The notes under the pieces were generated by a model. The model was not told where the DNA came from. It saw only the letters and a program-made list of their open reading frames with translations, and ran no database searches. A stretch of 64,000 bases of DNA from Leucoraja erinacea. Taxonomy: Eukaryota. The translations under genes were made by a program, and so were the position numbers. The DNA lies in assembly GCF_028641065.1 (NCBI RefSeq), contig NC_073410.1:2294001-2358000 (forward strand), read 5' to 3'. The stretch's first letter is position 1. Each line of letters begins with the position of its first letter. Below are positions 4,787 to 27,232 of the stretch, piece by piece.

Positions 4787-7700
4787 TTAGGACAACTGCC
4801 CGCAATCGGTGATGGTAATGGTGGTCGTGGGCGCGCCGTCCTCACTGCCGTAGCCCTCCATCTTCATCACGATATCCATGCCTTCCACCACCGCACCAAA
4901 CACAACGTGCTTTTTATTCAACCTACAGCGATGAAGAAGACACCAACGTTAATCGGCAGTGCCCAGACCCCGAGATTCAGACCCCAAATGCAAGGGGGGT
5001 GGGGGGGGAACAGGGCCAGCTCACCATGTTGTTTTCTTGGTACAAATAAAGAACTGGGAGCCATTTGTATCTTTCCCACTATTGGCCATGGACAGTATAC
5101 CTGCAATGGGAAGATGGCAAACGTGTTAGAGGCCTTTAAAATGATGAGAGGGATAGACAGAGTTGACGTGGATAAGCTTTTCCCATTGAGAGTAGGGAAA
5201 ACATAGAAACATAGAAATTAGGTGCAGGAGTAGGCCATTCGGCCCTTCGAGCCTGCACCGCCATTCAATATGATCATGGCTGATCATCCAACTCAGTATC
5301 CAGTACCTGCCTTCTCTCCATACCCTCTGATCCCCTTAGCCACAAGGGCCACATCTATCTCCCTCTTAAACATAGCCAATGAACTGGCCTCGACTACCCT
5401 CTGTGGCAGAGAGTTCCAGAGATTCACCACTCTCTGTGTGAAAAAAGTTCTTCTCATCTCGGTTTTAAAGGATTTCCCCCTTATCCTTAAGCTGTGACCC
5501 CTTGTCCTGGACTTCCCCAACATCGGGAGCAATCTTCCTGCATTTAGCCTGTCCAACCCCTTAAGAATTTTGTAAGTTTCTATAAGATCCCCTCTCAATC
5601 TCCTGAATTCTAGAGATTCTAGGAAGATTCAAACAAGAGGACATGACTTGAGAATTAAGGGACAGAAGTTTAAGGGTAACATGAGGGGGAACTTCTTTAC
5701 TCACAGAGTGGTGGCTGTGTTGAATGAGCTTCCAGTGGAAGTGGTGGAGGCAGGTTTGATTTTATCATTTAAAAATAAATTGGATAGGTATATGGACGGG
5801 AAAGGAATGGAGGGTTATGGTCTGAGTGCAGGTAGATGGGACATGGGGAAAATAAGTGTTCGGCACGGACTTGAAGGGCCGAGATGGCCTGTTTTCCGTG
5901 CTATAATTGTTATATGGTTATATGGTGTTCAGATTCTCCATAACGACAAGATATTCTTCGGGAGAGTTGGAAAGAACCAGGCGTGAAGAAAGAGCAGAGA
6001 GCAAATTTGGAGCGGTCTTGGCTTATAACATGCAGGTGTACAGAGATACAGTGAGAATCGTTTATTTGTTTGCTACCCAGTCAATGCATACCATACATGA
6101 GCACAGCCACACCATGCACAAGTACAATAGGTAGCACTAAGAGAAATGCCAGAGTGCCACATATAGTGCTATTTACGAAGAAAATGTATTTTTTTTTTTT
6201 AAAGTGCAAGGTCTACAATGAGGTAGGTTGGAAGATCAGGACCACACCCTAGCTTATGGGAGGACCATTCCGTAGTCTGATACATATTACATATTCTGTT
6301 GTGCTGCTGCAAGTAAGAGTTTCATTGTTCTAGCTGGGACACATGACAATAAACCACTGTTGACTATGGCAGAGGGAATGAAGCTCTTCCGGAATCTGGA
6401 GGAATGTGCTTTCAAGCTTTTGCATTCAGGAGAGACAAATAGAGGTTCAGCAAAGAAGAGAGAAAGAATATGAAAAAAAAAAAAAAAAAATTCGAACAAT
6501 ATTCAGCACTTATTCCTTCGCTCCAAACAGACACAACTCTCTGGATGTCATTCCTCCCTCTTCCACTCAAACCCTGGAACGGGTCAATAAAATGAGACCA
6601 CATATGTATTTACCTTTCCCTGTGTGCTTCAGTTCAAAATTCTCATCTTCAAACGTGTCCCCATAGATGGACTTGCCTCCAGTGCCATTGTTTGCCGTGA
6701 AATCACCACCCTGTATGATTCAAGGTTGAATATGTGCCGTCAGTTAACATGGAACATAGAAACAGAGAAAAGAGGTGGAGGAGTAGGCCATTCGGCCCTT
6801 CGAGCCAGCACCGCCATCCAATATGATCATGGCTGATCATCCAAAATCAGTACCCCGTTCCTACTTTTTCCCCATATCCCTTCATTCCGTTAGACCTAAG
6901 AGCTCTCTCTTGAAAACATCCAGTGAATTGGCCTCCACTGCCTTCTCTGGCACAGAATTCCACAGATTCACAACTCTCTGGGTGAAAAAGTTTATCCTCA
7001 TCTCCGTCCTAAATGGCCAATCCCTTATTCTTAAACTGTGACCCCTGGTTCTTGACTCCCCCAACATGGAGAACATTTTTCCTGCATCTAACCCGTCCAA
7101 TCCCTTAATAGCAGTACACAGGAAGAGCTCCCTTGTACCTCTGTGCTACACCAGTGCCAAGACACAATCCATATCCTCATTCCCTGTACATCCATGTGCC
7201 TATCCAAACATCCCTTAAATGCCACTATCTTATCTGTCTCCACCTGCTAGCCCTGGCAGTTCCAGTTACCCACTACCCTCTGTCTAACAAAACTTGCCCC
7301 ACAGTCTCGTTTCGCTATCGTGTTAAAGCTATGTCCTCTAGTATGTTTAAGAAGGAACTGCAGATGCTGGAAAATCGAAGGTAGACAAAAATGCTGGCGT
7401 CTGAAGAAGGGTTTTGGCCCAAAACGTTGCCTATTTCCTTTGCTCCATAAATGCTGCCTCAACCGCTGAGTCCCTCCAGTATGGGCCACTTTTGGTTAGT
7501 TCAGTTTAGAGATACACGCCGGGAACAAGCCCTTCGGCCCATCGGGTCTGCACTGACCAGCGATCCCTGCTCATTAACACTATCCTGCACACACTGGGGA
7601 CAATTTTTACATTTACCAAGCCATTTAACCTACAAATCTTTAAACCTGTACGTATTTGGAGAGTGGGAGGAAACCGAAGATCTCGAAGAAAACCCACACA

Positions 7701-10143
7701 GATCACGGGGAAAACGTACAAACTCCGTACAGACAGCATCCGTAGTCGGGATCGAACCCGGGTCTCCAGCGGTGCATTTGCTGTAAGGCAGCAATACTAC
7801 CGCTGCGCCACAGTGCCAGGGAAAAAGATTGTTACCCTATCCATGCCTTTCATAATGTTATATACTTCAATCAGGTCTCTCCGCAAACTCCGGCAATCCA
7901 TGTCTGTCGTTTAACCTCTCCCTGTAGCTAATACCTTCATCATTGTGGCAAAGTGCCCATATCCTCGCTGTTGAATCAAGAGCAGGGAGGTGACCTTGAA
8001 CACACTGCACCTCACCTGGCACATGAAATCGGGAATGATCCGGTGAAAAGTCGAGCCCTTGTAACCAAAACCCTTCTCCCCGGTACACAAGGCACGGAAG
8101 TTCTCTGCAACAAAACCACTCAGGGTTAGACCACATGCTTAAACGATGGAGACTTTGTTCAACTCAACGCGACAAGCCTGGGACTCACCTGCAGTCTTTG
8201 GGACAACATCAGCCCTGAGCTGGAAGAGACAAGAGGCACAGCGTCAGAACACCAACCCATGCACAATAATTACTCTGCCACAATACCGCTGAAAGCAACA
8301 CTGTCGAGAGAGTTCTTAACTCCAAGTCTTGCAAAGCAAAGAAAAACCATCTATAAAGATTTAGAATTTTGTAAATTGCCCCTAGTGTGTACGTTAGTGG
8401 GAGATATTCTGTTACATATTGTGTCGTGCTGCTGCAAGTAAGAATATCATTGTTCTATCTGGGACACACAACAATAAAACACTCTTGACTCTTGAATCTG
8501 GGGAGGATTTATAACTATCTGGAGGGAATAAAGTTGGATTAGATCAATATACTGTATAATCAGTGTTGAACAAGTTGGTGATAGTCAATGTACTTGGTGG
8601 GGCAAAGGGCCTGTTTCCATGCTGTATCTCTCTATATCCATCACACATCTCCAAACCAGCTGGCACCTCCCACACGATGGAAACTTTTAGGCTATTGTTT
8701 CATCCATCAGGTGCCTGCTCCTGACATAACACTGTGAACAGGCTGAGCCCAAGATGTGTTAATTCCCCTGTGGACTATTCCCTGCGGTGCTGACTCTGAC
8801 ACCACTGCACATGCATCACACTGCCCCAATGCATCAACCAGCACAGAGTCACCATCTGAAACTGAGTCTGCAATAATCTTTCTAAATCCCACCCCATCCC
8901 ATCCCATCCCATCCCCCATACTCTTGCTATTGAGGGAGTGCAGCGTAGGTTTACAAGGTTAATTTCCGGGATGGCGGGACTGACATATGCTGAGAGAATG
9001 GAGCAGCTGGGCTTGTACACTCTGGAGTTTAGAAGGATGAGAGGCTATCTCATTGAAACATATAAGACACGCTAGAGGCAGGAAACATGTTCCCGATGTT
9101 GGGGGAGTCCAGAACCAAAGGTCACAGTTTAAGAATAAGGAGTAAGCCATTTAGAACGGAGACGAGGAAACACTTTTTCTCACAGAAAGTTGTGAGTCTG
9201 TGGAATTCTCTGCCTCAGGGGGCGGTGGAGGCAGGTTCTCTGGATACTTTCAATAGAAAGCTAGATAGGGCTCTTAAAACTAGCAGAGTCAGGGGATATG
9301 GGGAGAAGGTAGGAACGGGGACTGATTGGGGATGATCAGCCATGACCACATTGAATGGCGGTGCTGGCTCGAAGGGCCGAATGGCCTCTACTCCTGCACC
9401 TATTGTCTATTACTGATGATATTGGTGATGTTAGTACATCTATTTATTGTTGCGTTAATGGACCTGTTACGTGCAGTAAGCGAAGACGCCATCGTTCCGT
9501 GCAGGAGGGAACTGCAGATGCTGGTTTAAACCGAAGATAGGCACAAAATGCTGGAGTAACTCAGCGGGACAGAAGAAGGGTCTCGGCCCGAATCATCACC
9601 CATTCCTTCTCTCCAGAGATGCTGCCTGTCCTGCTGAGTTACTCCAGCGTGTCCTTGTTCCGTTCCTGGGTACATTTGACAATCTGCAGTGTAGCTACTT
9701 GTAAATCCCCACCGTTTGATGCCTGGTTCACAAGTAGAGTGTCCTGCTCTTGCCCCAAGGCTCATCAATATCCCACTTCCAGCACTTGAAACCATAAAAC
9801 TCACCAGTGGCTAGTTCCTGCACTCTATTCAAACTCACTGTAGGGAGGGGTGGAGGGGGGAGGGGGGTAGTGTTTGGGACATCTGTTGGAGATGGGAGTA
9901 AACTGTGCAGATCTCCAGAGATGCTGTCAGACCCCCTGAGTTGCTCCAGCTTTTGGTGCCTATCTAAGGTCCTTTAGGTTGGGTATTCTATAGGGGGGTT
10001 TTAAGAGTCTGAAGGCTCGGGCATAAGGTGTATGGGGTTTGCCTCCACTCCTCCCGCTTGCCCCAGTAACTCACCTCCACGACAATACGCCCCATCGCTT
10101 TCTTCTTCGTAGCTACGTCCATGTAAACCCGAGGATTGGCCAT
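4787..10143 (-). CDS. Peptidyl-prolyl cis-trans isomerase (PPIF-type cyclophilin paralogue without presequence), unit A, 165 aa
   Basis: Exons 10075-10143, 8189-8219, 8016-8104, 6614-6710, 5025-5100, 4787-4922 (69/31/89/97/76/136 nt). Strong Kozak gccATGg. Protein: [166 protein letters not shown]55, F60, Q63, N102, F113, W121 and H126 are retained. AATAAA at 4752-4757. Confidence 0.9.
5198..5617 (-). mobile_element. CR1-type LINE 3' fragment nested in another CR1 subfamily fragment (5125-5930, +), in intron 4 of unit A
   Basis: Minus-strand [20 protein letters not shown]...GEKAGTGY interrupts the host coding sequence LRVGK|IQTRGHDL; the host ends in a TATATGGT tail. Confidence 0.85.
8920..9412 (+). 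mobile_element. CR1-type LINE 3' fragment
   Basis: [18 protein letters not shown]...LWNSLP plus the shared 3' stem and tail. Confidence 0.85.
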
Positions 10144-10225
10144 GGCACCGCTCGGCTCTGCGGCTCCTGGAGTCTGCGGGAGTGAGGACCAGGTACATCT
10201 CACCTGGAGCTCCCTCCCCCACCTC

Positions 10226-10242
10226 TGGGGGCGGGGATTATA
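10226..10242 (-). promoter_or_regulatory. Candidate proximal promoter of cyclophilin unit A (GC box next to TATAAT)
   Basis: GGGGCGGGG followed by ATTATA (TATAAT on the minus strand), about 90 nt upstream of the ATG. Motif evidence only. Confidence 0.3.
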
Positions 10243-10949
10243 CACTCTACCTATCACACAGTTGTACAACACTCCACCCCCACGCATCCCAAGGGAGAGG
10301 AAGCAACTGGGGCAGATACTCAGAGATAAATGTGTAGCAAGGAACTGCAGATGCTGGTTTAAACCGAAGATAGACACAAAGAGCTGGAGACTCTAGGGTC
10401 TGAAGAAGGGTCTCATCTGTTCCTTCGCTCCATAGATGCTGCCTCACCCACTGAGTTTCTCCAGCATTTTTGTCTACCTTCAATTTTTCCAGCATCTGCA
10501 GTCCTTTCTTAAACACCTTTTAGAAAGGAGGTGAGGAAAAACTTCTTTAGTCAGAGGGTAGTTAATCAGTGGAACTCATTGCCACTGAGGGCTGTGGAGG
10601 CCAAGTCAGTGGATATTTTAAGGCGAGATAGATGGGTGTCAGGGGTTATGGGGAGAAGGCAGGAAAATGGGACTAGGAGGCAGAGATCAGCCATGATCGA
10701 ATGGTGGAGTAGACTCGATGGGCCGAATGGCCTAATTCTACTACGATGACTTGTGAACTTGTGTCAGAGGCAGGAATCGCAGGTGCCATTGTTATTGACT
10801 CTGTGAGTGTGGCAACAACAAAGTCTCTGTTATTGTCAGTGTCTCGTGGTCCCCTGTGGCTATGTTGACTGAAGATAATGCATCTCACTGTATTTACCAG
10901 CGCGCGTGCATTCACAAACATGCGTCCCAAAATGTTCATGTGATTAGAA

Positions 10950-11375
10950 ATACTGCTCCAAGAAGCAGGCAAGTTGCTGCCTCAAAAAGGCTGGCAGTAT
11001 CATCAAAGACCCACACCATCCTGGCCACACACAAATCTCCCTGCTACCTTCAGGCAGAAGGTACAGGAGCCTGAAGACTGCAACAACCAGGTTCAGGAAT
11101 AGCTACTTCCCCACAGCCATCTGGCTATTAAACCTGGCTCGGACAAAACTCTGATTATTAATAACCCATTTTCTGTTATTTGCACTTTATTTATTCATGT
11201 GTGTATATATTTATTTATTCATGTGTGTATATTTATTTTATATTATGTGGTATATGGACACACTGATCTGTTTTGTAGTAAATGCCTACTATGTTCTGTG
11301 TGCTGAAGCAAAGCAAGAATTTCATTGTCCTATACAGGGACACATGACAATAAACTCACTTGAACTTGAACTTGA
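10950..11375 (+). mobile_element. Rex1/Babar-like LINE 3' fragment at the boundary of unit B
   Basis: Degenerate ...IIKDPHHPGH...LLPSGRRYRSLKTATTRFRNSYFPTAI... followed by AATAAA and a (CTTGAA)n tail. Confidence 0.7.
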
Positions 11376-11895
11376 AGAGCAGAGGGGAATTTCAAGGGAT
11401 AGGGTAGGAAGTGGTACAGAGGTCAGTAAAACAGTTCAGTTCATGTCACGTGTACTGAGGTACAGTGAAAAGCTTTTGACGCAAGCTAACCAGTCAGCAG
11501 AAAGACAATACACAATTCCAATTCAGCCACTTACAGAGTATAGATACATGATGAGGGAATAATGTTTAGTGCAAGGCAAAGTTATCAAGGATAGTCCGAG
11601 GGTCACCAAGAAGGTAGATATTAATTCAGCACCGCTCTCTGGTTGTGAAAACCAGCAAAAACTGAACAATGACACAAATGTATAAATGAAAACCAAAACC
11701 ATAACAGCCAATGCCCCTTTCCCCCCAAATGACACAAGTGGCTGCAGATGTCAGAAACTTAAAACAAGACACAGAGCGCAGGATGAACTCATTGGGTCAG
11801 AGAGCATTTACGGAGGGAATGGAAAGCCAACATCACTTCCTCTTCTGGGCAAACTTTGCCAGAGGCCAATGCAGTTCGGAGAGAATCTACTTTAC

Positions 11896-13802
11896 CTGGT
11901 CCTGTGTGCTTCAGTTTGAAATTCTCATCAGCAAATTTTTCCCCGTAGATGGACTTTCCACCAGTGCCATTATTTTCCGTGAAGTCACCGCCCTGTGTGT
12001 TTCAAGGTTGAAGGTGCCGTTAGTTAATATGGAACGGCAGAATCAAGAACATCGGTATAACGTTAACCACCGACCGCTCCTCACCTGGCACATGAAGTCA
12101 TTAATGATCCGGTGAAAAGTTGAGTCCTTGTAACCAAAACCCTTCTCCCCGGTACACAAGGCACGGAAGTTCTCTGCAACAAAACCACTCAGGGTTAGAC
12201 CACATGTTTAAACGATGGAGACTTTGTTCAACTCAACGTGACAAGCCTGGGACTCACCTGCAGTCTTTGGGACAACATCAGCCCTGAGCTGGAAGAGACA
12301 AGAGGCACAGCGTCAGAACACCAACACATGCACAATAATTACTCTGCCACATTGCCGCTGTAATTAGTGCAGCACACTAATTAGTGCAGCTCACAAGGTC
12401 ATTAAGTGATAGGAGCAGAATTAGGCCATTCGGCCCATCAAGTCTACTCCGCCATTCAATCATGGCTGATCCACATTCTCATGCCTTCTCCCCATAACCT
12501 GACCCCCGTACTAATCAAAGGTGATAGAGCTGCTGCCTCACGGAGCCAGAGACCAGAGTTCGATCTTATTCTCGGGTGCTGTCTATGTGGAGTTTGCACG
12601 CATGGGTTTTCTCCGGTTCCTCCCATATCCCAAAGACATGCAGGTTTGTAGTTTAATTGGCCCCTGTAAATTGCCCCGAGTGTATAGGGAGTGGATGAGA
12701 AAATGGGACAACATAGAAAGTTTAACTTGCTAGGCTTTGTCCTGCCCCCACCTCTTCTCTCTTCCCCCCTCCACTATCACAGTCTGAAGAAGAGCCCCAG
12801 ACTCTATCCATGTTCTGCAGAGTTGTCGCCCGACCCGCTGAGTTACTCCAGCATTTTGTGGTCTACCTGAAGCAAATGGTCGATGATCAAGGAGTCATCA
12901 TCCACCCAATGGCAAACACTTGTGGGTGGGTGACTATGTTTCATCCTGAGAGGCTGCGTAACTGAGGACTCTCCGGTTTACAGCCTGTACCCAAGGATAC
13001 GCTCAGGGACAGACATCAAGCTCTGCTGGAAGACCATCAACTCTGTGAAGGAATCTCCTTGGTCTGCATGAAGCTTGCTGGTCTCCCAGCAGAGTGAGAT
13101 GTCCGTCAGGGAATGTTCAGACGGCAGGAATAAATGCTGAGGGAAGCACTGAAACTTGGTGCAGCCAACGCCAAGGCTCTGTCCTTCTGCTGTTGGACAT
13201 TGAGGGGCAGAGTCCGGTGGGGGCACAAGGGAAGGGATATCACCAAAGAGGCCACGAGAAAGGCAACAGTATCATTGTCACAAAAACGGCAACATTGATT
13301 CCAAAGACCAACACTCAAAACGTATGAACATGTAGAGACAAGGAACTGCAGATGCTGCTTAATACATCCAAGGACACAAAGTGCTGGAGTAACTCAGCTG
13401 GACAGGCAGCATCTCTGGAGAGAAGGAATAGGTGATGTTTGGTGTCGAGACCCTTCTTCAGACGATCCTTTACCTGGCCACATGGTGGAGCCGTTGTTCT
13501 TCCATTGGCCAGCCGTGCCTTCAATGGCCCAGGCTGCAAGTTGTCAAAATAAGTTTTTTTCCCCCAATGAAGATAAGGCACAAAATGCTGCAGTAACTCA
13601 GAGGGACAGGCAGCATCTCTGGAGAGAAGGGATGGGTGGCATGTTGAGACCAGTCTTCAGACCCAAATTCTTCCATTGTATAGTTGAGCTATTTTTCTTT
13701 AAATGCTCCCCATTCTTTTCCTGTGCTGTTTTTTTTTTTAAAGCTGTTGGCGAGTTTTTTTGGGGGAACGATCTACACCCCTTGCGCTGAGCGCTGCAAC
13801 AT
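11896..13802 (-). pseudogene. PPIF-like duplicate, unit B: exons 2-4 only, exon 1 remnant, exons 5-6 absent
   Basis: Exons 12258-12288, 12085-12173 and 11896-11992 are open with GT-AG sites. The exon 1 remnant MLQRSAQGV* is at 13773-13802. Homology to units C/D stops at ~11375 in intron 4, next to a LINE tail, and no exon 5 or 6 is visible between 10143 and 11375. Confidence 0.8.
12870..13240 (+). mobile_element. Degenerate L1/Tx1-like ORF2 C-terminal fragment (second copy ~18775-19145)
   Basis: Plus-strand translation ...TDIKLCWKTINSVKESPWSA*SLLVSQQSEMSVREC resembles Tx1/L1 C-termini. Recognised from memory, not by search. Confidence 0.5.
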
Positions 13803-13933
13803 TTTAGCCAGTTGCCAACAATCTGCGACTGGAGAAGGTGGATGCCAATTGCAACGAGTTGTGACTGAGATCCCAGATCACATCATCAATCACACATCAC
13901 TCGCCCTGCCATTCGCTGCAACCGAGACATGTC

Positions 13934-14638
13934 TAGTCAAGACAAGTCACTTTTATTTCTATAGCACATTTAAAAAACAACTCTCGTTGACCAAAGTGCT
14001 TTATATTGATGGAGATACGAACGTTATACAACATTGGTTCATAGATTAAGTACATACATCACTACATACATATAGCCCTCCCTCAGAGGATGTCAAGAAA
14101 GGCTTGAGAGTAAAGATGAGTTTTAAGTCTCGACATAAAGGAGTCGATGGAGGGGGCAGTTTGTTCTGATGGGAAGAAGGATGCTGCTGTTCCACAGTCT
14201 AGGAGCTGCAACTGCAAAGGCACAGTCGCCCCTGAGCTTATGCCTAGACCGCGGGATATTCAGCAACCCCAAGTCGGCCGATCTAAAGGACCTGGAGGTG
14301 GTGTGGTGGGTGAGCAGACTTTTGATGTAGGTGGGGGCAAGCCCATTGAGGGCTTTGTAGACATAAAGGAGGATCTTGAAATGTATACGGAACCGCACAG
14401 GGAGCCAGTGGAGAGAGGCCAGGATCGGGGTGATGTGGTCCCTTTTTCGGGTGCCCATCTGGAGCCTCGCTGCGGCGTTTTGGACCAGTTGCAGGCGGGA
14501 CAGGGAAGATTGGCCGATGCCAGTGTAGAGGGAGTTGCAGTAATCTAGGCGGGAGGAGATAAATGTGTGGATGATCTTTTCGAGGTCGTCAAACTGGAGG
14601 AATCGTTTTATTTTAGCTATCGTCCGAAGCTGGAAGAA
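13934..14638 (-). mobile_element. L2-clade LINE 3' fragment
   Basis: FISSRLDYCNSL...LQLVQNAAARL...DHITPILASLHWLPVRFRIHFKILL...AFAVAAPRLWNS with an L2-type 3' tail. The empty site is visible at ~26717. Confidence 0.9.
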
Positions 14639-15675
14639 ATGACGGCGGAAATCAAAGCAAAACAAAACCCCTTGCATGTGAAAGGACTTCATCTAGTTGG
14701 TTCCTTTGAACAAGGCCACGTTTTGGATACATCAGACTGTGCAATGAGCAACACAAGAGAAGTACCAAGGGTGCAAGTCTGCTGACACTTAAAATATATA
14801 TTTTAATAAATGCTAGAAAATCAGTGGCTCTGGCTCGATCAGCTGATCTTTTTTTTTAATACAAACATTATCAGCATCTGCAGTTCTTTTTTTTTAAAAA
14901 GAAACATATTTTAAACAAATTCAATTTCAATTCATGTCGTTGAATGACTGGAAAAGACCAGGTATAAAACAATTTAAAGCATAACTTACTGCAATCCTTG
15001 TGGGCTGTAGTATTGAAAAACAAGGAACTGCAGAGTTGCTGTTATACAGAAAAAGACACAGTGCTGGAGTGCAGGGGGGGTCTATTTCCCCATTATATCG
15101 TACAGGTTTTCTCATATCATATAGTATTAATTGAAAACATAAGATTACTCCCATATTAATGAAGTATTTTAAGATCAGAATATTCTCAGAATATCATATA
15201 CATGAGTGTCAGGAGCAGAATTAGGCCATTCGGCCCATCGAGTCTTCTCTGTTATTCAATCATGGCTGATCTATCTTCTCCTCCTAACCCCATTCTCCTG
15301 CCTTCTCCCCATAACTGCCTGACACCAGTAATAAGTAAAGCTAGTGCATTGGTAAATCCTGCTGAGCAGGTAACAGAATGCCAGTGATTCAGGGAATTAG
15401 GTGAGTATTTAATGCTAGATGAGTAATATCTAAATACTTTTTGATAAAAGATGACTGAAAGCCATCTGTGTGAGCTGCTAACTCAAGGCAACATTTAACA
15501 TCTGAATTCTTTCATTACAATTATTTTATGACCACACTTCACTAGAAAGTCTTAAATAGAACATGAATGGCACTATGTAAGTTGGAGTATTTGTGTTCCA
15601 AGTTTGCACCCTATTGTGCAGTTGGTAGATGTGTTGTCCCACAGAAACCTGGTTCATCCTCACTTTACCTGTTGT

Positions 15676-16195
15676 CTCCTAACTTGAGGAAGGACATTCT
15701 TGCTATTGAGGGAGTGCAGCGTAGGTTTCCAGGTTAATTCCCAGGATGGCGGAACTGTCACATGATGAATGGATGGAGCGGCTGGGCTTGTATTCGCTGA
15801 AATTTAGAAGGATAAGAGCGGGTCTTATAGAAACATGTAAAATTATTAAGGGATTGGACCCGCGAGATGCTGGAAACATGTTCCGGATGTTGGGGGAGTC
15901 CAGAATCAGGGGCCACAGTTTAAGAATAAGGGGTAGGCTATTTAGAGATGAGGCTTTTTCACCCAGGGAGTTGTGAATCTGTGGAATTCTCTACCTCAGC
16001 AGTGGAGACCAATTCACTGGATGCATTCAATAGAGGGTTGGATAGAGCTCTTAGTGCAAGTGGAATCGAGGCATATGGGAAGAAGGCAGGAACGGGGTAT
16101 TGTTTGTGGATGATCAGCCATGATCACATTGAATGGTGATTCTGGCTCAGAGGGACGAATGGCCTACTCCTGCACCTATTGTCTATGTATCTATG
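15676..16195 (+). mobile_element. CR1-type LINE 3' fragment (duplicate at ~21585-22105)
   Basis: ERLGLYSLKFRRIRAGLIETCKIIKGLD... plus 3' tail. Absent from the homologous site near 28135. Confidence 0.85.
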
Positions 16196-16884
16196 TAGAG
16201 TTTGCATGTACTCGCTGTGATCCTGTGAGTTTCCCCTTGGTGCACCAGTTACATCTCAAGGGCGTAAGGGTTGGTGGGTTAACTGGCCTCTAGACAACTG
16301 CAATGAATGTGCTGGTGAGCGTTGGAATCTGGAGGGAGTTGATGAGAATGAGGGGAGAATAAAAAATGGGATAAACGTTTAATGCATGTAGTTTGTTGAT
16401 GGTCGGTAGGCTGTTTGTGCTATATCTGTCTATAATTCAATAAGAAATGGCTGTTCTTGGTGATAAGGTTCACCAGGCAAGGTGGAGACGTTGGAGTAAC
16501 TTCCAGCTCTCTCAGGTTTAGTTAGTTTAGAGATACAGCGTGAAAACAGGCCCATCGACCCACCGAGTCTGCGCTGACCAGTGATCTCGGCACACCAACA
16601 CGATCCTACGCACACTAGAGGCAAATTGCAATTATACATGGCCAATTAACCAACAAACCATTACATATTTGGAGTGTGGGGGGAAACCGGAGATAGCCCA
16701 TGAGCGTACAAACTCCATACAGACAGTGCCCGTAGTCCGGATCGACCCAGAGTCTCTGACGCTGTAAGGCAGCAACTCTACCGCTGCGCCACCCACTAGT
16801 GATGTAAAATTAGGATCATCCAAATAATGCGAGTCACAAATGATCATACTTTATTTGAACTGCATGCTTCCAAACGCAAATACA

Positions 16885-19708
16885 TTAGGGCAACTGTCCA
16901 CAATCAGTGATGACAACAGGGACAGATTTCTTCGATTTGGTGCCACCTTTTTCTGACGGCTTGCTAGTTTCTTCCATCTTCCTGACAACATCCATGCCCT
17001 CTACCACCGAACCAAACACAACATGCTTGCCATCTAACCTATAACACAAAGCAGGTGATATTATTTACCTCCAATATTATCAATAAATAACTGCAAAATA
17101 GATTTTTTTTTTTTTTAATTGGCAGCTTACCATTCAGTTTTCACGGTGCAGAGAAAGAACTGGGAACCATTTGTGTCTTTTCCAGAGTTGGCCATGGACA
17201 GGATACCTGCAATGTGAAGATGGCAAATGTGCTCAGATTGTCTTTGTAAGCAAGATATTAAAATGTAGATAGAAGCAGGCAAGAGCAGAGTGGAATCTCA
17301 AGGGGAGAGGTGAGGAAGTGGTACAGAGGTCAGTAAAACAGTGCAGTTCATGTCACGTGTACTGAGGTACAGTGAAAAGCTTTTGACGCAAGCTAACCAG
17401 TCAGCAGAAAGACAATACACGATTCCAATTCAGCCACTTACAGAGTATAGATACATGATGAGGGAATAATGTTTAGTGCAAGGCAAAGTTATCAAGGATA
17501 GTCCGAGGGTCACCAAGAAGGTAGATAGTAATTCAGCACCGCTCTCTGGTTGTGAAAACCAGCAAAAACTGAACAATGGCACAAATGTATAAATGAAAAC
17601 CAAAACCATAACAGCCAATGCCCCTTTCCCCCCAAATGACACAAGTGGCTGCAGATGTCAGAAACTTAAAACAAGACACAGAGCGCAGGATGAACTCATT
17701 GGGTCAGAGAGCATTTACGGAGGGAATGGAAAGGCAACATCACTTCCTCTTCTGGGCAAACTTTGCAAGAGGCCAATGCAGTTCGAACAGAATCTACTTT
17801 ACCTGGTCCTTCGTGCTTCAGTTTGAAATTCTCATCAGCAAATTTTTCCCCGTAGATGGACTTTCCACCAGTGCCATCATTTGCCGTGAAGTCACCGCCC
17901 TGTGTGTTTCAAGGTTGAAGGTGCCGTTAGTTAATATGGAACGGCAGAATCAAGAACATCGGTATAACGTTAACCACCGACCGCTCCTCACCTGGCACAT
18001 GAAGTCATTAATGATCCGGTGAAAAGTTGAGCCCTTGTAACCAAAACCCTTCTCCCCAGTACACAAGGCACGGAAGTTCTCTGCAACAAAACCACTCAGG
18101 GTTAGACCACATGTTTAAACGATAGAGACTTTGTTCAACTCAACGTGACAAGCCTGGGACTCACCTGCAGTCTTTGGGACAACATCAGCCCTGAGCTGGA
18201 AGAGACAAGAGGCACAGCGTCAGAACACCAACACATGCACAATAATTACTCTGCCACATTACCGCTGTAATTAGTGCAGCACAGTGGCTCACAAGGTCAT
18301 TAAGTGATAGGAGCAGAATTAGGCCATTCGGCCCATCAAGTCTACTCCGCCATTCAATCATGGCTGATCCACATTCTCATGCCTTCTCCCCATAACCTGA
18401 CCCCCGTACTAATCAAAGGTGATAGAGCTGCTGCCTCACGGAGCCAGAGACCAGAGTTCGATCTTATTCTCGGGTGCTGTCTATGTGGAGTTTGCACGCA
18501 TGGGTTTTCTCCGGTTCCTCCCATATCCCAAAGACATGCAGGTTTGTAGTTTAATTGGCCCCTGTAAATTGCCCCGAGTGTATAGGGAGTGGATGAGAAA
18601 GTGGGATAACATAGAAAGTTTCACTTGCCAGGCTTTGTCCTGCCCCCACCTCTTCTCTCTTCCCTCCTCCACTATCACAGTCTGAAGAAGAGCCCCGATC
18701 CAAAACTCTATCCATGTTCTGCAGAGGTGTCGCCCGACCCGCTGAGTTACTCCAGCACTTTGTGGTCTACCTGAAGCAAATGGTCGATGATCAAGGAGTC
18801 ATCATCCACCCAATGGCAAACACTGTTGGGTGGGTGACTATGTTTCATCCTGAGAGGCTGCGTAACTGAGGACTCTCCGGTTTACAGCCTGTACCCAAGG
18901 ATACGCTCAGGGACAGACATCAAGCTCTGCTGGAAGACCATCAACTGTGTGAAGGAATCTCCTTGGTCTGCATGAAGCTTGCTGGTCTCCCAGCAGAGTG
19001 AGATGTCCGTCAGGGAATGTTCAGACGGCAGGAATAAATGCTGAGGGAAGCACTGAAACTTGGTGCAGCCAACGCCAAGGCTCTGTCCTTCTGCTGTTGG
19101 ACATTGAGGGGCAGAGTCCGGTGGGGGCACAAGGGAAGGGATATCACCAAAGAGGCCACGAGAAAGGCAACAGTATCATTGTCACAAAAACGGCAACATT
19201 GATTCCAAAGACCAACACTCAAAACGTATGAACATGTAGAGACAAGGAACTGCAGATGCTGCTTAATACATCCAAGGACACAAAGTGCTGGAGTAACTCA
19301 GCTGGACAGGCAGCATCTCTGGAGAGAAGGAATAGGTGATGTTTGGTGTCGAGACCCTTCTTCAGACGATCCTTTACCTGGCCACATGGTGGAGCCGTTG
19401 TTCTTCCATTGGCCAGCCGTGCCTTCAATGGCCCAGGCTGCAAGTTGTCAAAATAAGTTTTTTTCCCCCAATGAAGATAAGGCACAAAATGCTGCAGTAA
19501 CTCAGAGGGACAGGCAGCATCTCTGGAGAGAAGGGATAGGTGGCATGTTGAGACCAGTCTTCAGACCCAAATTCTTCCATTGTATAGTTGAGCTATTTTT
19601 CTTTAAATGCTCCCCATTCTTTTCCTGTGCTGTTTTTTTTTTTTAAAGCTGTTGGCGAGTTTTTTTTGGGGGAACGATCTACACCCCTTGCGCTGAGCGC
19701 TGCAACAT
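16885..19708 (-). pseudogene. PPIF-like duplicate, unit C: exons 2-6 intact, exon 1 mostly deleted (pseudogene or alternative exon cassette)
   Basis: Open exons with intact splice sites at 18165-18195, 17992-18080, 17803-17899, 17131-17206, 16885-17038, and AATAAA at 16850-16855. The exon 1 remnant at 19679-19708 reads only MLQRSAQGV*; the remaining exon 1 sequence and its donor are missing. Confidence 0.78.
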
Positions 19709-19839
19709 TTTAGCCAGTTGCCAACAATCTGCGACTGGAGAAGGTGGATGCCAATTGCAACGAGTTGTGACTGAGATCCCAGATCACATCATCAATCACA
19801 CATCATTCGCCCCGCCATTCGCTGCAACCGAGACATGTC

Positions 19840-20549
19840 TAGTCAAGACAAGTCACTTTTATTTCTATAGCACATTTAAAAAACAACTCTCGTTGACCAA
19901 AGTGCTTTATATCGATGGAGATACGAACGTTATACAACATTGGTTCATAGATTAAGTACATACATCACTACATACATATAGCCCTCCCTCAGAGGACGTC
20001 AAGAAAGGCTTGAGAGTAAAGATGAATTTTAAGTCTCGACTTAAAGTAGTCGATGGAGGGGGCAGTTTGTTCTGATGGGAAGAAGGATGCTGCTGTTCCA
20101 CAGTCTAGGAGCTGCAACCGCAAAGGCGCGGTCGCCCCTGAGCTTATGCCTAGACCGCGGGATATTCAGCAACCCCAAGTCGACCGATCTGAAGGACCTG
20201 GAGGTGGTGTGGTGGGTGAGCAGACTTTTGATGTAGGTGGGGGCAAGCCCATTGAGGGCTTTGTAGACATAAAGGAGGATCTTGAAATGTATACGGAACC
20301 GCACAGGGAGCCAGTGGAGAGAGGCCAGGATCGGGGTGATGTGGTCCCTTTTTCGGGTGCCCGTCAGGAGTCTCGCTGCCCTGCGGCGTTTTGGACCAGT
20401 TGCGGGCGGGACAGGGAAGATTGGCCGATGCCAGTGTAGAAGGGAGTTGCAGTAATCTAGGCGGGAGGAGATAAATGTGTGGATGATCTTTTCGAGGTCA
20501 TCAAACTGGAGGAATCGTTTTATTTTAGCTATCGTCCGAAGCTGGAAGA
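19840..20549 (-). mobile_element. L2-clade LINE 3' fragment (duplicated with the tandem unit; frameshifted)
   Basis: Near-identical to 13934-14638. Confidence 0.88.
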
Positions 20550-22802
20550 AATGACGGTGGAAATCAAAGCAAAACAAAACCCCTTGCATGTGAAAGGACT
20601 TCATCTAGTTGGTTCCTTTGAACAAGGCCACGTTTTGGATACATCTGTGCAATGAACAACACAAGAGAAGTACCAAGGGTGCAAGTCTGCTGACACTTAA
20701 AATATATATTTTAATAAATGCTAGAAAATCAGTGGCTCTGGCTCGATCAGCTGATTATTTTTTAATACAAACATTATCAGCATCTGCAGTTCTTTTTTTT
20801 TTAAAAAGAAACATATTTTAAACAAATTCAATTTCAATTCATGTCTTTGAATGACTGGAATAGACCAGGTATAAAACAATTTAAAGCATCTTACTGCAAT
20901 CCTCGTGGGCTGTAGTATTGAAAAACAAGGAACTGCAGAGTTGCTGTTATACAGAAAAAGACACAGTGCTGGAGTGCAGGGGGGGGGGGTCTATTTCCCC
21001 ATTATATTGTACAGGTTTTGTCATATCATATAGTATTAATTGAAAACATAAGATTACTCCCATATTAATGAAGTATTTTAAGATCAGAATATTCTCAGAA
21101 TATCATATACATGAGTGTCAGGAGCAGAATTAGGCCATTCGGCCCATCGAGTCTTCTCTGTTATTCAATCATGGCTGATCTATCTTCTCCTCCTAACCCC
21201 ATTCTCCTGCCTTCTCCCCATAACTGCCTGACACCAGTAATAATGAAAGCTAGTGCATTGGTAAGTCCTGCTGAGCAGGTAACAGAATGCCAGTGATTCA
21301 GGGAATTAGGTGAGTATTTAATGCTAGATGAGTAATATCTAAATACTTTTTGATAAAAGATGACTGAAAGCCATCTGTGTGAACTGCTAACTCAAGGCAA
21401 CATTTAACATCTGAATTCTTTCATTACAATTATTTTATGACCACACTTCACTAGAAAGTCTTAAATAGAACATGAATGGCACTATGTAAGTTAGAGTATT
21501 TGTGTTCCAAGTTTGCACCCTATTGTGCAGTTGGTAGATGTGTTGTCCCACAGAAACCTGGTTCATCCTCACCTTACCTGTCGTCTCCTAACTTGAGGAA
21601 GGACATTCTTGCTATTGAGGGAGTGCAGCGTAGGTTTCCAGGTTAATTCCCAGGATGGCGGAACTATCACATGATGAATGGATGGAGCGGCTGGGCTTGT
21701 ATTCGCTGAAATTTAGAAGGATAAGAGCGGGTCTTATAGAAACATGTAAAATTATTAAGGGATTGGACCCGCTAGATGCTGGAAACATGTTCCTGATGTT
21801 GGGGGAGTCCAGAATCAGGGGCCACAGTTTAAGAATAAGGGGCAGGCTATTTAGAGATGAGGCTTTTTCACCCAGGGAGTTGTGAATCTGTGGAATTCTC
21901 TACCTCAGCAGTGGAGACCAATTCACTGGATGCATTCAATAGAGTTGGATAGAGCTCTTAGTGCAAGTGGAATCGAGGCATATGGGAAGAAGGCAGGAAC
22001 GGGGTATTGTTTGTGGATGATCAGCCATGATCACATTGAATGGTGATTCTGGCTCAGAGGGACGAATGGCCTACTCCTGCACCTATTGTCTATGTATCTA
22101 TGTAGAGTTTGCATGTACTCGCTGTGATCCTGTGAGTTTCCCCTTGGTGCACCAGTTACATCTCAAGGGCGTAAGGGTTGGTGGGTTAACTAGCCTCTAG
22201 ACAACTGCAATGAATGTGCTGGTGAGCGTTGGAATCTGGAGGGAGTTGACGACAATGAGGGGAGAATAAAAAATGGGATAAATGTTTAATGCATGTAGTT
22301 TGTTGATGGTCAGTAGGTTGCAGTGCCTGTTTGTGCTATATCTGTCTATAATTCGAGAAGAAATGGCTGTTCTTGGTGAATAAAGGTTCACCAGGCAAGG
22401 TGGAGACATTGGAGTAACTTCCAGCTCTCTCAGGTTTAGTTAGTTTAGAGATACAGCGTGAAAACAGGCCCATCGACCCACCGAGTCTGCGCTGACCAGT
22501 GATCTCGGCACACCAACACGATCCTACGCACACTAGGGGCAAATTGCAATTATACATGGCCAATTAACCAACAAACCATTACATATTTGGAGTGTGGGGG
22601 GAAACCGGAGATAGCCCATGAGCGTACAAACTCCATACAGACAGCGCCCGTAGTCCGGATCGACCCAGAATCTCTGGCGCTGTAAGGCAGCAACTCTACC
22701 GCTGCGCCACCCACTAGTGATGTAAAATTATGATCATCCAAATAATGCGAGTCACAAATGAGCATACTTTATTTGAACTGCATGCTTCCAAACGCAAATA
22801 CA

Positions 22803-25800
22803 TTAGGGCAACTGTCCACAATCAGTGATGACAACAGGGACAGATTTCTTCGATTTGGTGCCACCTTTTTCTGACGGCTTGCTAGTTGCTTCCATCTTCC
22901 TGACAACATCCATGCCCTCTACCACCGAACCAAACACAACATGCTTGCCATCTAACCTATAACACAAAGCAGGTGATATTATTTACCTCCAATATTATCA
23001 ATAAATTACTGCAAAATAGATTTTTTTTTTTTTTAATTGGCAGCTTACCATTCAGTTTTCTTGGTGCAGAGAAAGAACTGGGAACCATTTGTGTCTTTTC
23101 CAGAGTTGGCCATGGACAGGATACCTGCAATGTGAAGATGGCAAATGTGCTCAGATTGTCTTTGTAAGCAAGATATTAAAATGTAGATAGAAGCAGGCAA
23201 GAGCAGAGGGGAATCTCAAGGGGGGAGGTGAGGAAGTGGTACAGAGGTCAGTAAAACAGTTCAGTTCATGTCACGTATACCGAGGTACAGTGAAAAACTT
23301 TTGTCGCAAGCTAACCAGTCAGCAGAAAGACAATACATGATTACAATTCAGCCACTTACAGAGTATAGATACATGATGAGGGAATAATGTTTAGTGCAAG
23401 GCAAAGTTATCAAGGATATTCCAAGGGTCACCAAGAAGGTAGATAGTAATTCAGCACCGCTCTCTGGTTGTGAAAACCAGCAAAAACTGAACAATGGCAC
23501 AAATGTATAAATGAAAACCAAAACCATAACAGCCAATGCCCCTTTCCCCCCAAATGACACAAGTGGCTGCAGATGTCAGAAACTTAAACAAGACACAAAG
23601 CGCAGGATGAACTCATTGGGTCAGAGAGCATTTACGGAGGGAATGGAAAGGCAACATCACTTCCTCTTCTGGGCAAACTTTGCAAGAGGCCAATGCAGTT
23701 CGGAGAGAATCTACTTTACCTGGTCCTGTGTGCTTCAGGGTGAAATTCTCATCAGCAAATTTTTTCCCGTAGATGGACTTTCCACCAGTGCCATCATTTG
23801 CCGTGAAGTCACCGCCCTGTGTGTTTCAAGGTTGAAGGTGCCGTTAGTTAATATGGAACGGCAGAATCAAGAACATCGGTATAACGTTAACCACCAACCG
23901 CTCCTCACCTGGCACATAAATTCATAAATGATCCGATGAAAAGTCGAGCCCTTGTAACCAAAACCCTTCTCCCCGGTACACAAGGCACGGAAGTTCTCTG
24001 CAACAAAACCACTCAGTGTTAGACCACATGTTTAAACGATGGAGACTTTGTTCAACTCAATGTGACAAGCCTGGGACTCACCTGCAGTCTTTGGGACAAC
24101 ATCAGCCCTGAGCTGGAAGAGACAAGAGGCACAGCGTCAGAACACCAACACATGCACAATAATTACTCTGCCACATTACCGCTGTAATTAGTGCAGCACA
24201 GTGGCTCACAAGGTCATTAAGTGATAGGAGCAGAATTAGGCCATTCGGCCCATCAAGTCTACTCCGCCATTCAATCATGGCTGATCCACATTCTCATGCC
24301 TTCTCCCCATAACCTGACCCCCGTACTAATCAAAGGTGATAGAGCTGCTGCCTCACGGAGCCAGAGACCAGAGTTCGATCTTATTCTCGGGTGCTGTCTA
24401 TGTGGAGTTTGCACGCATGGGTTTTCTCCAGTTCCTCCCATATCTCAAAGACATGTATGTTTGTAGTTTAATTGGCCCCTGTAAATTGCCCCGAGTGTAT
24501 AGGGAGTGGATGAGAAAATGGGATAACATAGAAAGTTTCACTTGCCAGGCTTTATCCTGCCCCCACCTCTTCTCTCTTCCCCCCTCCACTATCACAGTCT
24601 GAAGAAGAGCCCCGATCCAAAACGTTGTCTATCCATGTTCTGCAGCGATGTCGCCCAACCCGCTGAGTTACTCCAGCACTTTGTGTCCGTCTTCGATTTG
24701 AACCATCATCTACTATTTCTTCCTGCACCCTGAAGAGGTGACGTTTCAGGTCGGGACCCTTCTGAATACTAATTGTAAGCGGTGGGAAAACAAAGCACGT
24801 TTGGCAGACACAGGAGAGAAGGCATTTAACGGCCAGATTGTTGGCAAGCGTGGAGAGTTTTGCATTATATTATTCTGTGCTTGTATGCATAAAATTTGCT
24901 TGTAATGCTTTGTCTTCTTCCCATAAGTGGCACGACTTTCAAGAGAGCTATATAGGGCTCTTAAAGATAGCGGAGTCAAGGGATATGGGGAGAAGGCAGG
25001 AACCGGGTACTGATTGGGGATGATCAGCCATGATCACATTGAATTGCGGTGCTGGCTCGAAGGGCCGAATGGCCTACTCCTGCACCTAATTTCTATGTTT
25101 CTATCCTTAAGCTGTGACCCCTTGTCCTGGACTTCCCTAACATCGGGAACAATCTTCCTGCATCTAGCAATTTTATGGACATAAAATGTTGGAGTAACTC
25201 AGCGGGACAGGCAGCATCTCTGGAGTCTGAAGAAGGAATAGGTGTCGAGACCCTTCTTTAGATTGATCCTTTACCTGGCCACATGGTGGAGCCGTTGTTC
25301 TTCCATTGGGCAGCCATGCCTTCAATGGCCCAGGCTGCAAGTTGGCAAACTCCTACAAGTGTTCCAGCTCCACCCTCCAGCCCAGCCCTGCTTTGGATAC
25401 AAGTTTCCGCATTCTTCCATGCAGCTTCGGTTTGGCAGCCAGCGCCCCACACAACCAACCACAGGGCAACACTTCTCTGTCTAGAGTCCTAGCACCAAAC
25501 TACCACCCTATTCCCGCCCAAAGGCCGCCATTATAATCTCCCAGCTCTAATTAAAGATTACTAAACACCCTACTGAAGCAAAAAACAGACACACAAGCAA
25601 CTGCAGACGCTGGAACCTTGAGCAAGACACAACGTGCTGGAGGGGCTCAGTGGGTCAGGCAGCATCTGTGGGAGGAATGGCCACGAAATGTTTGGGGTAA
25701 AAGGTTTTGACCCTTAGAAACATAGAAAAATAGGTGTAGGAGTGGGCCATTCGAGTTAACATCGACATTCAATATGATCATGGCTGATCCTCTAAATATC

Positions 25801-26598
25801 CCCCATATCCCTCGATTCCTTATACCGAAGAGCTAAATCTAACTCCCTCTTGAAAACTTCATCTGGAGTTTTGAGGAAAGGTCACAACATGAAACATCGC
25901 CTAGTTCCACCGCAGACGCTGCCTGACCCGCTGAGTTCCTCCAGCACTTTGTACTTTACTCCAGTTTCCGCGCCTCTGCGGTTCCCCGTTTCTCGCAGAA
26001 ATTCACCAGTTGATCGATTTCACAAAAAACAAAACAAAACTTCGCCCCGACTGTGTAACGCGTCTCTGACACTAAGCGCCGAACTGATTCCACTTGGCTA
26101 CAATTGTTAAACATTTTCGATACCACACCGGACGTTGTTGCTCATTTACAAGCGTAACAAAGTACGTTTTCTCCCAATTCCCCCCCAATGAAGATGAGAC
26201 ACAAAAAAGCTGGAGTAACTCAGCGGGACAGGCAGCATCTCCAGAGAGAAGGGATGGGTCGAGACCTTCTTCAGACCCATTTTTTCCCCTCCACTGTATA
26301 GTTGAGTTTTTTGCTTTCATGTTCCTTATTCTTTTCCTGTGCTGTATTTTTTTTGGTGGGGGGGGAGGGGAGAGATGATTTTTCCAGCCCTTTGACTTAC
26401 CTCCATCACAACGCGGCCCGCGGGCTGGTTATCAATGGAAATGTCCATAAACACCTTGGGGTTTGCGGCCGCCATGGTTCTGCAGCTTCTCAGTTGTGAG
26501 ATAAACGCGAATGGGATGGTCTGCACCAAAGCTTTGGTCTGCACCGCCTTTCCGACTTTGCAACAGAGCAGGAAGTGTTGCGCTGAGCGCTGCAACAT
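22803..26598 (-). CDS. PPIF: Peptidyl-prolyl cis-trans isomerase F, mitochondrial (cyclophilin D)-like, unit D, 214 aa
   Basis: Exons 26401-26598, 24082-24112, 23909-23997, 23720-23816, 23049-23124, 22803-22956 (198/31/89/97/76/154 nt), all GT-AG. The N-terminus [41 protein letters not shown] has no acidic residue (presequence-like). It is followed by ...[45 protein letters not shown]...[10 protein letters not shown]...ITDCGQLP*. The split 97+76 exons are the PPIF pattern (PPIA has one 173-nt exon). AATAAA at 22768-22773. Confidence 0.9.
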
Positions 26599-27232
26599 TT
26601 TAGCCAGTTGCCAGCAATCTGCGCCTAGAGAAGGCGGATTCCAATTGCGACTGAGATCACAGACCACGCCGTCGATCACACATCCTCGCCCGACCATTCG
26701 CTGCCTCTCCTTCCGTGTTCCCATTGCAACCGAGAGATGAGGGCGGAAATCAAAGCGAAAAAAAAAAATCCCCTTTGCATGCGAAAGGACTTCATCTTGT
26801 TAATTCCCCAGAACAAGGCCACGTTTTTGATACATTAAACTGTGCAATGAACAGCGCAAGAGAAGCACCAAGGGTGCAAGTCTGCTGACACTTAAAATAT
26901 ATATTTTCAATGAATGCAAGAAAATCAGTGGCTCTGGCTCTAACATTTTTGTGGGTTTTAAACAAAAAAAAGATTTCCAGCGTCTGCAGTTTTTTTTAAA
27001 ACGATTTAAAAATAAATTCACAGTTCAATTTCAATTGATGGCGTGAAAGCACTGGAAAAAACCAGGTATAAAACAATTTAAAGCATAACTTACTCCAATC
27101 TTCACGGGCTGTAGTATTGGGAAACAAGGAACTGCAGAGTTGCTGTTTTACAGAAAAAGACACAAAGTGCTGGAGTGCGGGGGGGGGGGGTTCTATCTCC
27201 CCATATCTTATTTTTCTCGTACCATATAGTAT

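What the first reader, a model, noticed from the sequence alone, without database searches (positions are those of the whole stretch)
4787..26598. Four-unit cyclophilin D (PPIF) array: headless but intact exon cassettes downstream of a single presequence exon
Seen: four same-strand units. Only D has a full presequence exon 1. C has exons 2-6 and B has exons 2-4, all free of stops and frameshifts and with canonical splice sites, yet both lack a usable exon 1. Exon phases allow D-exon1 + C-exons2-6 (214 aa) and D-exon1 + B-exons2-4 + A-exons5-6 (208 aa) to be in frame. Known: PPIF is a single gene beside ZMIZ1 in mammals and regulates the mitochondrial permeability transition pore. Inference: this could be a constant-leader / variable-catalytic-cassette locus producing several CypD variants by alternative splicing and poly(A) read-through. 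The simpler reading is recent pseudogenes too young to have decayed.
Basis: partly seen in the sequence, partly recalled or inferred. Interest (0 to 1): 0.75.

Follow-up and report, generated by a model that had tools for sequence, protein, structure and literature searches.

The report
Hypervariable skate cyclophilin D, headless copies
In a skate, the mitochondrial cyclophilin D gene is followed by two copies whose first exon is deleted and by a complete second gene without a targeting peptide; the headless copies are likely recombination partners (one likely just a second allele) rather than splice-in cassettes, and the working gene carries unusually many amino-acid variants.

Summary
The anatomy is confirmed, with two additions. 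A is a complete 165-aa gene with its own exon 1. B and C each carry a relic exon 1 with a deletion. The locus is ZMIZ1-PPIF in a skate.

Shared-leader splicing is not supported as a main mode. In two bulk RNA runs, D-exon-1 joints match exon 2-3 joints (624/637, 1328/1332), the relic exon has depth 0.8, and C's codon 160 is at most 1% of reads. Minor or tissue-restricted use is not excluded.

'Too young to decay' fits only C. The headless flank differs from D's by 12% while the bodies differ by 2-3%, so B is likely old and kept intact by gene conversion. C's unit differs from its neighbour by 1.3%, which is allele level, and its letters occur in D-led RNA of other animals. C is therefore likely a young unequal crossover or an uncollapsed haplotype.

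The more interesting result is variability. D and C differ at 7 of 148 residues, codon 160 has three states, changes avoid the conserved core (p=2e-4), and one hits an S2 gatekeeper. Other sharks and skates also hold several copies.

The parts
26401..26598 (-). D exon 1: 41-aa presequence-like leader (6 R/K, no D/E), then a second in-frame ATG at 26475
   Evidence: spliced to exon 2 in 624 and 1328 reads
22803..24112 (-). D exons 2-6 (31, 89, 97, 76, 154 nt); AATAAA at 22773
   Evidence: all five joints seen in RNA, molecule ends at 22750-22763
18765..22545 (-). 5' flank of C: old, decayed duplicate of D's promoter, exon 1 and intron 1 (227 of 1862 aligned bases differ from D's flank)
19688..19708 (-). 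relic exon 1 of C (21 nt identical to D, then deletion)
   Evidence: bin depth 0.8 in both bulk RNA runs
16885..18195 (-). C exons 2-6, intact; AATAAA at 16855; 7 aa differences from D
12861..16627 (-). 5' flank of B, 1.33% different from the 5' flank of C
13782..13802 (-). relic exon 1 of B
11896..12288 (-). B exons 2-4, intact; homology ends at 11375 in intron 4; no AATAAA/ATTAAA in 11375-11895
4787..10143 (-). A: complete six-exon paralog, 165 aa, no presequence; AATAAA at 4757
8034..8289 (-). likely conversion tract in A: 7 of 256 nt differ from D, against 20 of 97 in exon 4 and 13 of 76 in exon 5
11375..24685 (.). tandem repeat of a 5.9-kb unit, about 2.25 copies, 97.5% identical
37561..37668 (-). 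last coding exon of ZMIZ1 (a further exon at 41689-41940 was used for naming)
   Evidence: read from the sequence

Best explanation
D is the spliced, expressed cyclophilin D gene and A is a complete separate paralog without presequence; B is likely an old headless partial duplicate whose exons are likely kept intact by gene conversion with D, and C is likely an allelic copy of the D-body-plus-flank unit (young unequal crossover or uncollapsed second haplotype), so neither is likely used as a regular splice-in cassette. Steps. (1) Shown: a whole-gene duplicate of D lost most of exon 1, and its flank has drifted 12%. (2) Inferred: D, B and A keep exchanging sequence over exons 2-4. (3) Inferred: mispairing of B with D duplicated the 5.9-kb unit and made C. 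(4) Shown in two bulk runs: nearly all body mRNA starts with D exon 1 and little RNA lies beyond about 20.8 kb. (5) Inferred: the many amino-acid variants are alleles of D, some shared with the headless copies by conversion.
For: Age mismatch: flank 227/1862 = 12.2% from D's flank; bodies D-C 2.6%, C-B 2.2%. Mosaic: D-odd, B-odd and C-odd sites are interleaved with no single breakpoint. A is 7/256 from D around exons 2-3, including intron 2, but 17-21% in exons 4-5. C at allele level: flank C vs B 50/3757 = 1.33%, D vs C 3' part 6/499 = 1.2%; little skate heterozygosity is 1.56-1.6% (PMC10115646, passages; the window's species was not determined). Letters of the lower copy occur in RNA from the D position in other animals: 23936 in 909/914 (X23) and 1066/1869 (X24); 23062 in 425/710 and 1256/1256; flank sites 21245, 21493, 22192, 22250 in 46/46, 42/42, 47/47, 25/25 (X24). 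Joints exon1-2 vs exon2-3: 624 vs 637 and 1328 vs 1332. Relic-exon bin depth is 0.8, against about 640 and 1170 on D exon 1 and 11-22 at two intron-1 sites. C's codon 160 is at most 5/710 and 12/1256 reads. X24 carries letters at 23105 and 23108 that neither D nor C of the window has, in 98.7-98.9% of reads.
Against: Allele ratios are 60:40 (X23) and 57:43 (X24), off 50:50 even with counts halved (p 3e-4 and 2e-5); a third expressed body could do this. The single-cell runs show three 3'-end types (22762 alt 60% and 58%; 22761 alt 17% and 24%). X21 has 9 of 40 reads with C's letter at 23062 but not the third-state letter at 23061, possibly C's codon; pooling of animals is unknown. Only 40 of 1526 letter rows and 15 of 812 joints were shown, so most B/C-diagnostic sites were not seen. 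RefSeq models in Heptranchias put one identical presequence exon on 5 accessions with 4 different bodies. Tissues of the runs are unknown.
Confidence: 0.65

Rival explanations
1. Shared leader with variable cassettes: polymerase reads through D's poly(A) site and D exon 1 splices to C, B or A exon 2, giving several mitochondrial cyclophilin variants from one allele at a meaningful level in some tissue.
For: Splice sites and frames are intact, and exon 2 with its 25-nt acceptor flank is identical in all four units. Skewed ratios and three 3'-end types. Heptranchias XP_067828595-603: the same presequence exon on several bodies, four loci also modelled with a different short first exon, one of them A-like (automated models, coordinates not seen). 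Some read-through exists: depth 42-47 at 21245-22192 in X24.
Against: Depth falls to 0.8 at 19569-19836, about 4-7% of the depth at two intron-1 sites. C's codon 160 is at most 1% in both bulk runs. No shortfall of exon 3-4 joints (652, 1372) against exon 2-3 joints (637, 1332), as D1-to-A splicing might give. No shortfall of exon 4-5 joints in X23 (696 vs 652); X24 has a 17% shortfall, plausibly from two mismatches near that joint. The one Amblyraja cluster asked for has a single member, with no second full body on the same exon 1.
Confidence: 0.12
2. C is a false heterotype duplication: the assembly placed both haplotypes of the D-body-plus-flank unit in tandem, so D1+C2-6 is a real protein but simply the other allele. 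This is one version of the best explanation, given apart because it changes the copy number from four to three.
For: Unit-to-unit difference 1.2-1.4%, near reported little skate heterozygosity. 12 of the 54 flank differences appear in the RNA table with the lower copy's letter near 100% in at least one run; 5 of the 12 lie in a LINE piece and may come from other loci. Heterotype duplications are the main source of false gene gains (PMC9516828, passages).
Against: No gap lies inside the array; the only Ns are at 34950-35123 and 45406-45600, whereas gaps are a listed mark of false duplications. Multiple copies also occur in Rhinoraja and Heptranchias. A real young crossover between two alleles gives the same sequence pattern.
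Confidence: 0.35
3. B and C are both simply recent pseudogenes that have had no time to decay, with no exchange of sequence.
For: Bodies are 95-98% identical to D. pN/pS among D, C and B is 0.6-1.4, near neutral.
Against: The flank holding the relic exon is 12% diverged, with many indels. The 10 variable residues avoid conserved columns (mean conservation 0.63 vs 0.88, p=2.2e-4), which random decay would not do.
Confidence: 0.08

Closest known systems
Vertebrate PPIF (cyclophilin D) beside ZMIZ1
   Same: Neighbour is ZMIZ1; the Amblyraja ortholog's best solved relatives are CypD (about 270 bits vs 256 for CypA); six exons, leader peptide, and the active-site positions named in PMC9596378 are kept in D.
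   Different: Several copies, a leaderless paralog, an 18-nt longer exon 6, a second in-frame ATG, and fast change at surface residues. That mammals have one slowly evolving copy is recalled, not tested here.
Gene-pseudogene pairs under conversion and unequal crossover (PMS2/PMS2CL, CYP21A2/CYP21A1P in RCCX, OPN1LW/MW array)
   Same: Partial or silent copy homogenised with the gene over some exons, hybrid copies, copy-number change; in the opsin array downstream copies are not expressed (PMC11890787, passages).
   Different: Here the partner is silent because exon 1 is deleted, and the exchanged variants are missense changes at tolerated surface positions rather than disease lesions.
False heterotype duplication (Ko et al. 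2022, PMC9516828)
   Same: Adjacent copy at allele-level divergence.
   Different: No gap in the array; read depth could not be tested.
Common-5'-exon, variable-3'-cassette loci (Ig heavy-chain constant genes, Drosophila lola and mod(mdg4); recalled, no call)
   Same: The layout would allow it.
   Different: No fixed cassette-specific sequence or substantial read-through was seen in the RNA laid.

Membership tests
PPIF ortholog (unit D) | Lies just downstream of ZMIZ1, same strand | tested here: met
   best hit Rhincodon ZMIZ1a at 95%, on a contig of the same length (26,773,444) as its cyclophilin P0071. Most named rows read ZMIZ1; 3 of the 120 listed bird rows are named ZMIZ2.
PPIF ortholog (unit D) | Closer to CypD than to CypA | tested here: met
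   with the Amblyraja ortholog P0002 as query. The tree leaves the deep forks open.
PPIF ortholog (unit D) | Active-site residues R97, F102, M103, Q105, G114, A143, N144, F155, W163, L164, H168 | tested here: met
   11 of 11 kept in D (positions from PMC9596378). Gatekeepers 123, 124, 145 differ.
PPIF ortholog (unit D) | Mitochondrial presequence that is imported and cleaved | tested here: inconclusive
   Composition fits (6 R/K, 0 D/E in 41 aa); import was not testable.
Shared-leader, variable-cassette locus | Cassettes with intact splice sites and compatible phase | tested here: met
Shared-leader, variable-cassette locus | Leader spliced to a downstream cassette in cis | tested here: inconclusive
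   Reads could not be phased; C and B bodies were not in the laid stretch; C codon 160 at most 1% in two bulk runs, possibly 9/40 in X21.
Shared-leader, variable-cassette locus | Substantial read-through beyond the first poly(A) site to the next cassette | tested here: not met
   Depth 0.8 at 19569-19836 vs 11-22 at two intron-1 sites in X23 and X24.
Shared-leader, variable-cassette locus | Fixed sequence differences between cassettes | tested here: not met
   At the body sites shown (23936, 23062, 22762) the lower copy's letter reaches 99-100% of reads in at least one run. Other sites were hidden.
Silent partial duplicate under gene conversion | Lost or silent 5' end | tested here: met
   Deletion in exon 1; relic bin about 0.1% of exon-1 depth.
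Silent partial duplicate under gene conversion | Patch of high identity inside older divergence | tested here: met
   2-3% body vs 12% flank; 2.7% tract vs 17-21% exons in A.
False heterotype duplication (unit C) | Allele-level divergence | tested here: met
   1.2-1.4% vs 1.56-1.6% in little skate.
False heterotype duplication (unit C) | Gap between the copies | tested here: not met
False heterotype duplication (unit C) | Half read depth, no spanning reads | not testable with these tools

The most novel reading that the evidence does not exclude
Skate cyclophilin D is under diversifying or balancing selection around its substrate groove, like an immune gene. The headless copies serve as a conversion reservoir of working variants, and in some sharks (perhaps in some skate tissues) one presequence exon is shared among tandem bodies, giving a repertoire of mitochondrial cyclophilins.
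Probability: 0.25. Interest if true: 0.72.

Novelty: new variant of a known kind. Interest (0 to 1): 0.42.

Why it matters
Gene-pseudogene conversion pairs and young tandem copies are ordinary. What stands out is the gene involved. Cyclophilin D regulates the mitochondrial permeability transition pore, yet here likely alleles differ at about 5% of residues, one codon has three states, and one variable site is the S123 gatekeeper that sets ligand selectivity in human CypD. If selection drives this, skates offer natural variants for testing which surface residues matter for pore regulation, and point to an unknown partner or pathogen binding CypD. If C is a false duplication, the practical lesson is a mis-counted gene. 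Four literature searches listed no paper on a PPIF array or selection on PPIF in cartilaginous fish; the library is open-access only, and one search listed 15 of 356 hits.

Tried and rejected
Earlier-finding look-ups were empty. The protein atlas gave only sub-0.9 bacterial rows for the ZMIZ exon. The bacterial promoter scan is irrelevant to this organism. One search listed no indexed holder on record as RNA ('no RNA holder listed'); the four raw RNA runs came by species label.

I considered that the locus is ZMIZ2-PPIA and rejected it. Rows 23043 and 23046 were set aside as spliced-read overhang into intron 5, and rows 24951, 25045, 25765, 25790, 25824 as outside the duplicated unit; 33 of 40 rows were compared. 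One non-collinear LINE block was dropped from the flank divergence (12.6% with it, 12.2% without). An in-frame GT in the relic exon (19684, 13778) could give a truncated product; no such joint is among the 15 of 812 shown.

pN/pS above 1 was not shown (D-C 0.6, D-B 0.6, C-B 1.37 on few changes). The excess of mature-domain over leader change is not significant (p=0.18 for D vs Amblyraja; p=0.09 pooled with the Mobula pair). The tree does not place A. No structure prediction was run; residue positions come from sequence alignment to CypD. Searches gave nothing specific. No supplements were read.

Full report
Observation. The four units are as described, all on the minus strand. D has six exons (214 aa). 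C has exons 2-6 and B exons 2-4, all with canonical ends and open frames, and the two hybrid frames give 214 and 208 aa. Two facts change the picture. A is a complete gene with its own 69-nt exon 1 and no presequence (165 aa). B and C are not simply headless: each follows a decayed copy of D's promoter region with a relic exon 1, 21 nt identical to D and then a deletion that removes the donor.

Identity. The closest proteins to D exon 1 are from the skates Amblyraja radiata (88%) and Rhinoraja longicauda; I did not determine the species. The upstream gene is ZMIZ1. The Amblyraja ortholog scores higher on CypD than on CypA structures, and D keeps 11 of 11 active-site residues named in PMC9596378 (passages). 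D is the PPIF ortholog.

History read from the DNA. There are three layers. First, A is an old paralog: exons 4 and 5 differ from D by 20/97 and 13/76, yet 256 nt around exons 2-3, intron included, differ by only 7, which points to conversion. Second, the headless unit is old: its flank differs from D's by 227/1862 (12.2%), while the bodies differ by 2.2-2.6%. Sites private to D, B or C are interleaved along the body. 'Too young to decay' therefore fails for B. Third, the 5.9-kb unit is repeated: C's flank differs from B's by 50/3757 (1.33%) and C's 3' part from D's by 6/499 (1.2%). Little skate heterozygosity is 1.56-1.6% (PMC10115646, passages). C is what mispairing of B with D would make, whether in meiosis or in the assembler. 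There is no gap in the array, which counts somewhat against the artefact (PMC9516828, passages). I put a real young duplication at about 0.5, an artefact at 0.35 and an older fixed paralog at 0.15.

RNA. Four raw RNA runs with the same species label as the best DNA holder were laid on 18765-26800 at 92% likeness, so that reads of C and B bodies fall on D (about 1-5% of each run read; tissues unknown). Joint counts for exons 1-2, 2-3, 3-4, 4-5, 5-6 were 624, 637, 652, 696, 487 in X23 and 1328, 1332, 1372, 1138, 835 in X24. So nearly all body mRNA is led by D exon 1, with little room for transcripts led by A's or the relic exon, assuming such reads would have been laid. The relic bin has depth 0.8, about 0.1% of exon 1 and 4-7% of two intron-1 sites, so little transcription seems to reach the next unit. 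At codon 160, X23 shows about 59% of a third codon (Ala), absent from both window copies, and 40% D's base at 23062; X24 shows 99% Ala. C's Val codon is at most 5/710 and 12/1256 reads. Lower-copy letters appear at 23936 (909/914; 1066/1869), at 22762 (85/145; 172/172) and at several flank sites just downstream of the poly(A) site (46/46, 42/42, 47/47, 25/25 in X24). The differences between upper and lower units thus behave as population alleles, not fixed paralog marks. At the sites shown, each bulk run has at most two major types, as one diploid locus would give.

Against that reading. The ratios are 60:40 and 57:43 rather than 50:50. The single-cell runs hold three 3'-end types. X21 has 9 of 40 reads that may carry C's codon. 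Only 40 of 1526 letter rows and 15 of 812 joints were displayed, so the exon 3-4 diagnostic codons were mostly unseen, and no read could be phased from exon 1 to a cassette. Low or tissue-restricted leader sharing stays open (about 0.12).

Relatives. Several copies on one contig are seen in Rhinoraja (P0003, P0042) and Heptranchias (XP_067828595-603), and copies group by species in the tree (98/94 and 97/97), as repeated expansion or concerted evolution predicts. In Heptranchias, five accessions share one identical presequence exon over four different bodies, and four short isoforms have other first exons, one resembling A's. These are automated models whose coordinates I could not see; they fit leader sharing or identical whole-gene copies.

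Variability of D. D and C differ at 7 of 148 codons by amino acid (9.5 nonsynonymous changes in 345 sites, 2.75%). That is twice the flank difference (Fisher p 0.03-0.09) and far above what omega 0.1-0.2 would give (Poisson p at most 1.5e-5). The 10 positions variable among D, C and B lie in poorly conserved columns of 86 homologs (mean 0.63 vs 0.88, p=2.2e-4), although two of them (114, 136) are at least 95% conserved. Position 124 (K/E) aligns with CypD S123, an S2-pocket gatekeeper. Against Amblyraja the mature domain differs at 23/173 and the leader at 2/41 (not significant). The read-through intron-4 tail of Amblyraja isoform X2, a rough neutral yardstick, differs at 4/32. So the mature domain changes about as fast as neutral sequence although 72% of columns are at least 90% conserved. 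This suggests diversifying selection, but relaxed constraint at surface sites plus conversion is not excluded, and omega above 1 was not shown.

Verdict. The array is real in the sequence and its mechanism is most likely a known one: a working gene, an old silent partial copy kept in step by conversion, a young or false extra unit, and a separate leaderless paralog. The cassette model is unsupported as a main mode. The unusual amino-acid variability of a cyclophilin D and the shark models are worth following. Papers seen: passages of PMC10115646, PMC9596378, PMC9516828 and PMC11890787; all others only as search listings. Examples of common-5'-exon loci and the single-copy state in mammals are recalled.

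Noticed in passing
window 26475: Second in-frame ATG in D exon 1 in a strong context; a Met at this place is also in the skate, ray and most shark relatives aligned but not in Rhincodon or the two frogs. Leaky scanning could give a cytosolic form.
   Followed up: partly
window 22803-22956: Exon 6 of D and C is 18 nt longer than A's; an insertion at this place is seen only in the skate proteins of the alignment.
   Followed up: partly
window 20860-22750: X24 has a 3'-extended transcript at about 4% of exon depth, fading near 20.8 kb; X23 has much less.
   Followed up: partly
window 23105, 23108: About 1% of X23 reads carry X24's letters and the reverse; this may be index hopping within one study or a minor expressed copy.
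   Followed up: no
P0001 (Amblyraja isoform X2): Model that reads from exon 4 into intron 4; B's homology also ends in intron 4.
   Followed up: partly
P0073, P0082 (Acanthopagrus): Two isoforms of one cyclophilin model share the body but differ in the first exon, hinting at similar tandem clusters in teleosts.
   Followed up: no
P0198, P0199 (Acipenser): Gene models fusing ZMIZ1 with a cyclophilin domain, showing the same adjacency.
   Followed up: no
window 2307-2994, 46181-46690, 53328-54015 and others: Young LINE family with copies 97-98% identical.
   Followed up: no
window 47570-47800: Short tandem repeat of about 48 nt in a ZMIZ1 intron, seen as repeated peptides in the ORF list.
   Followed up: no
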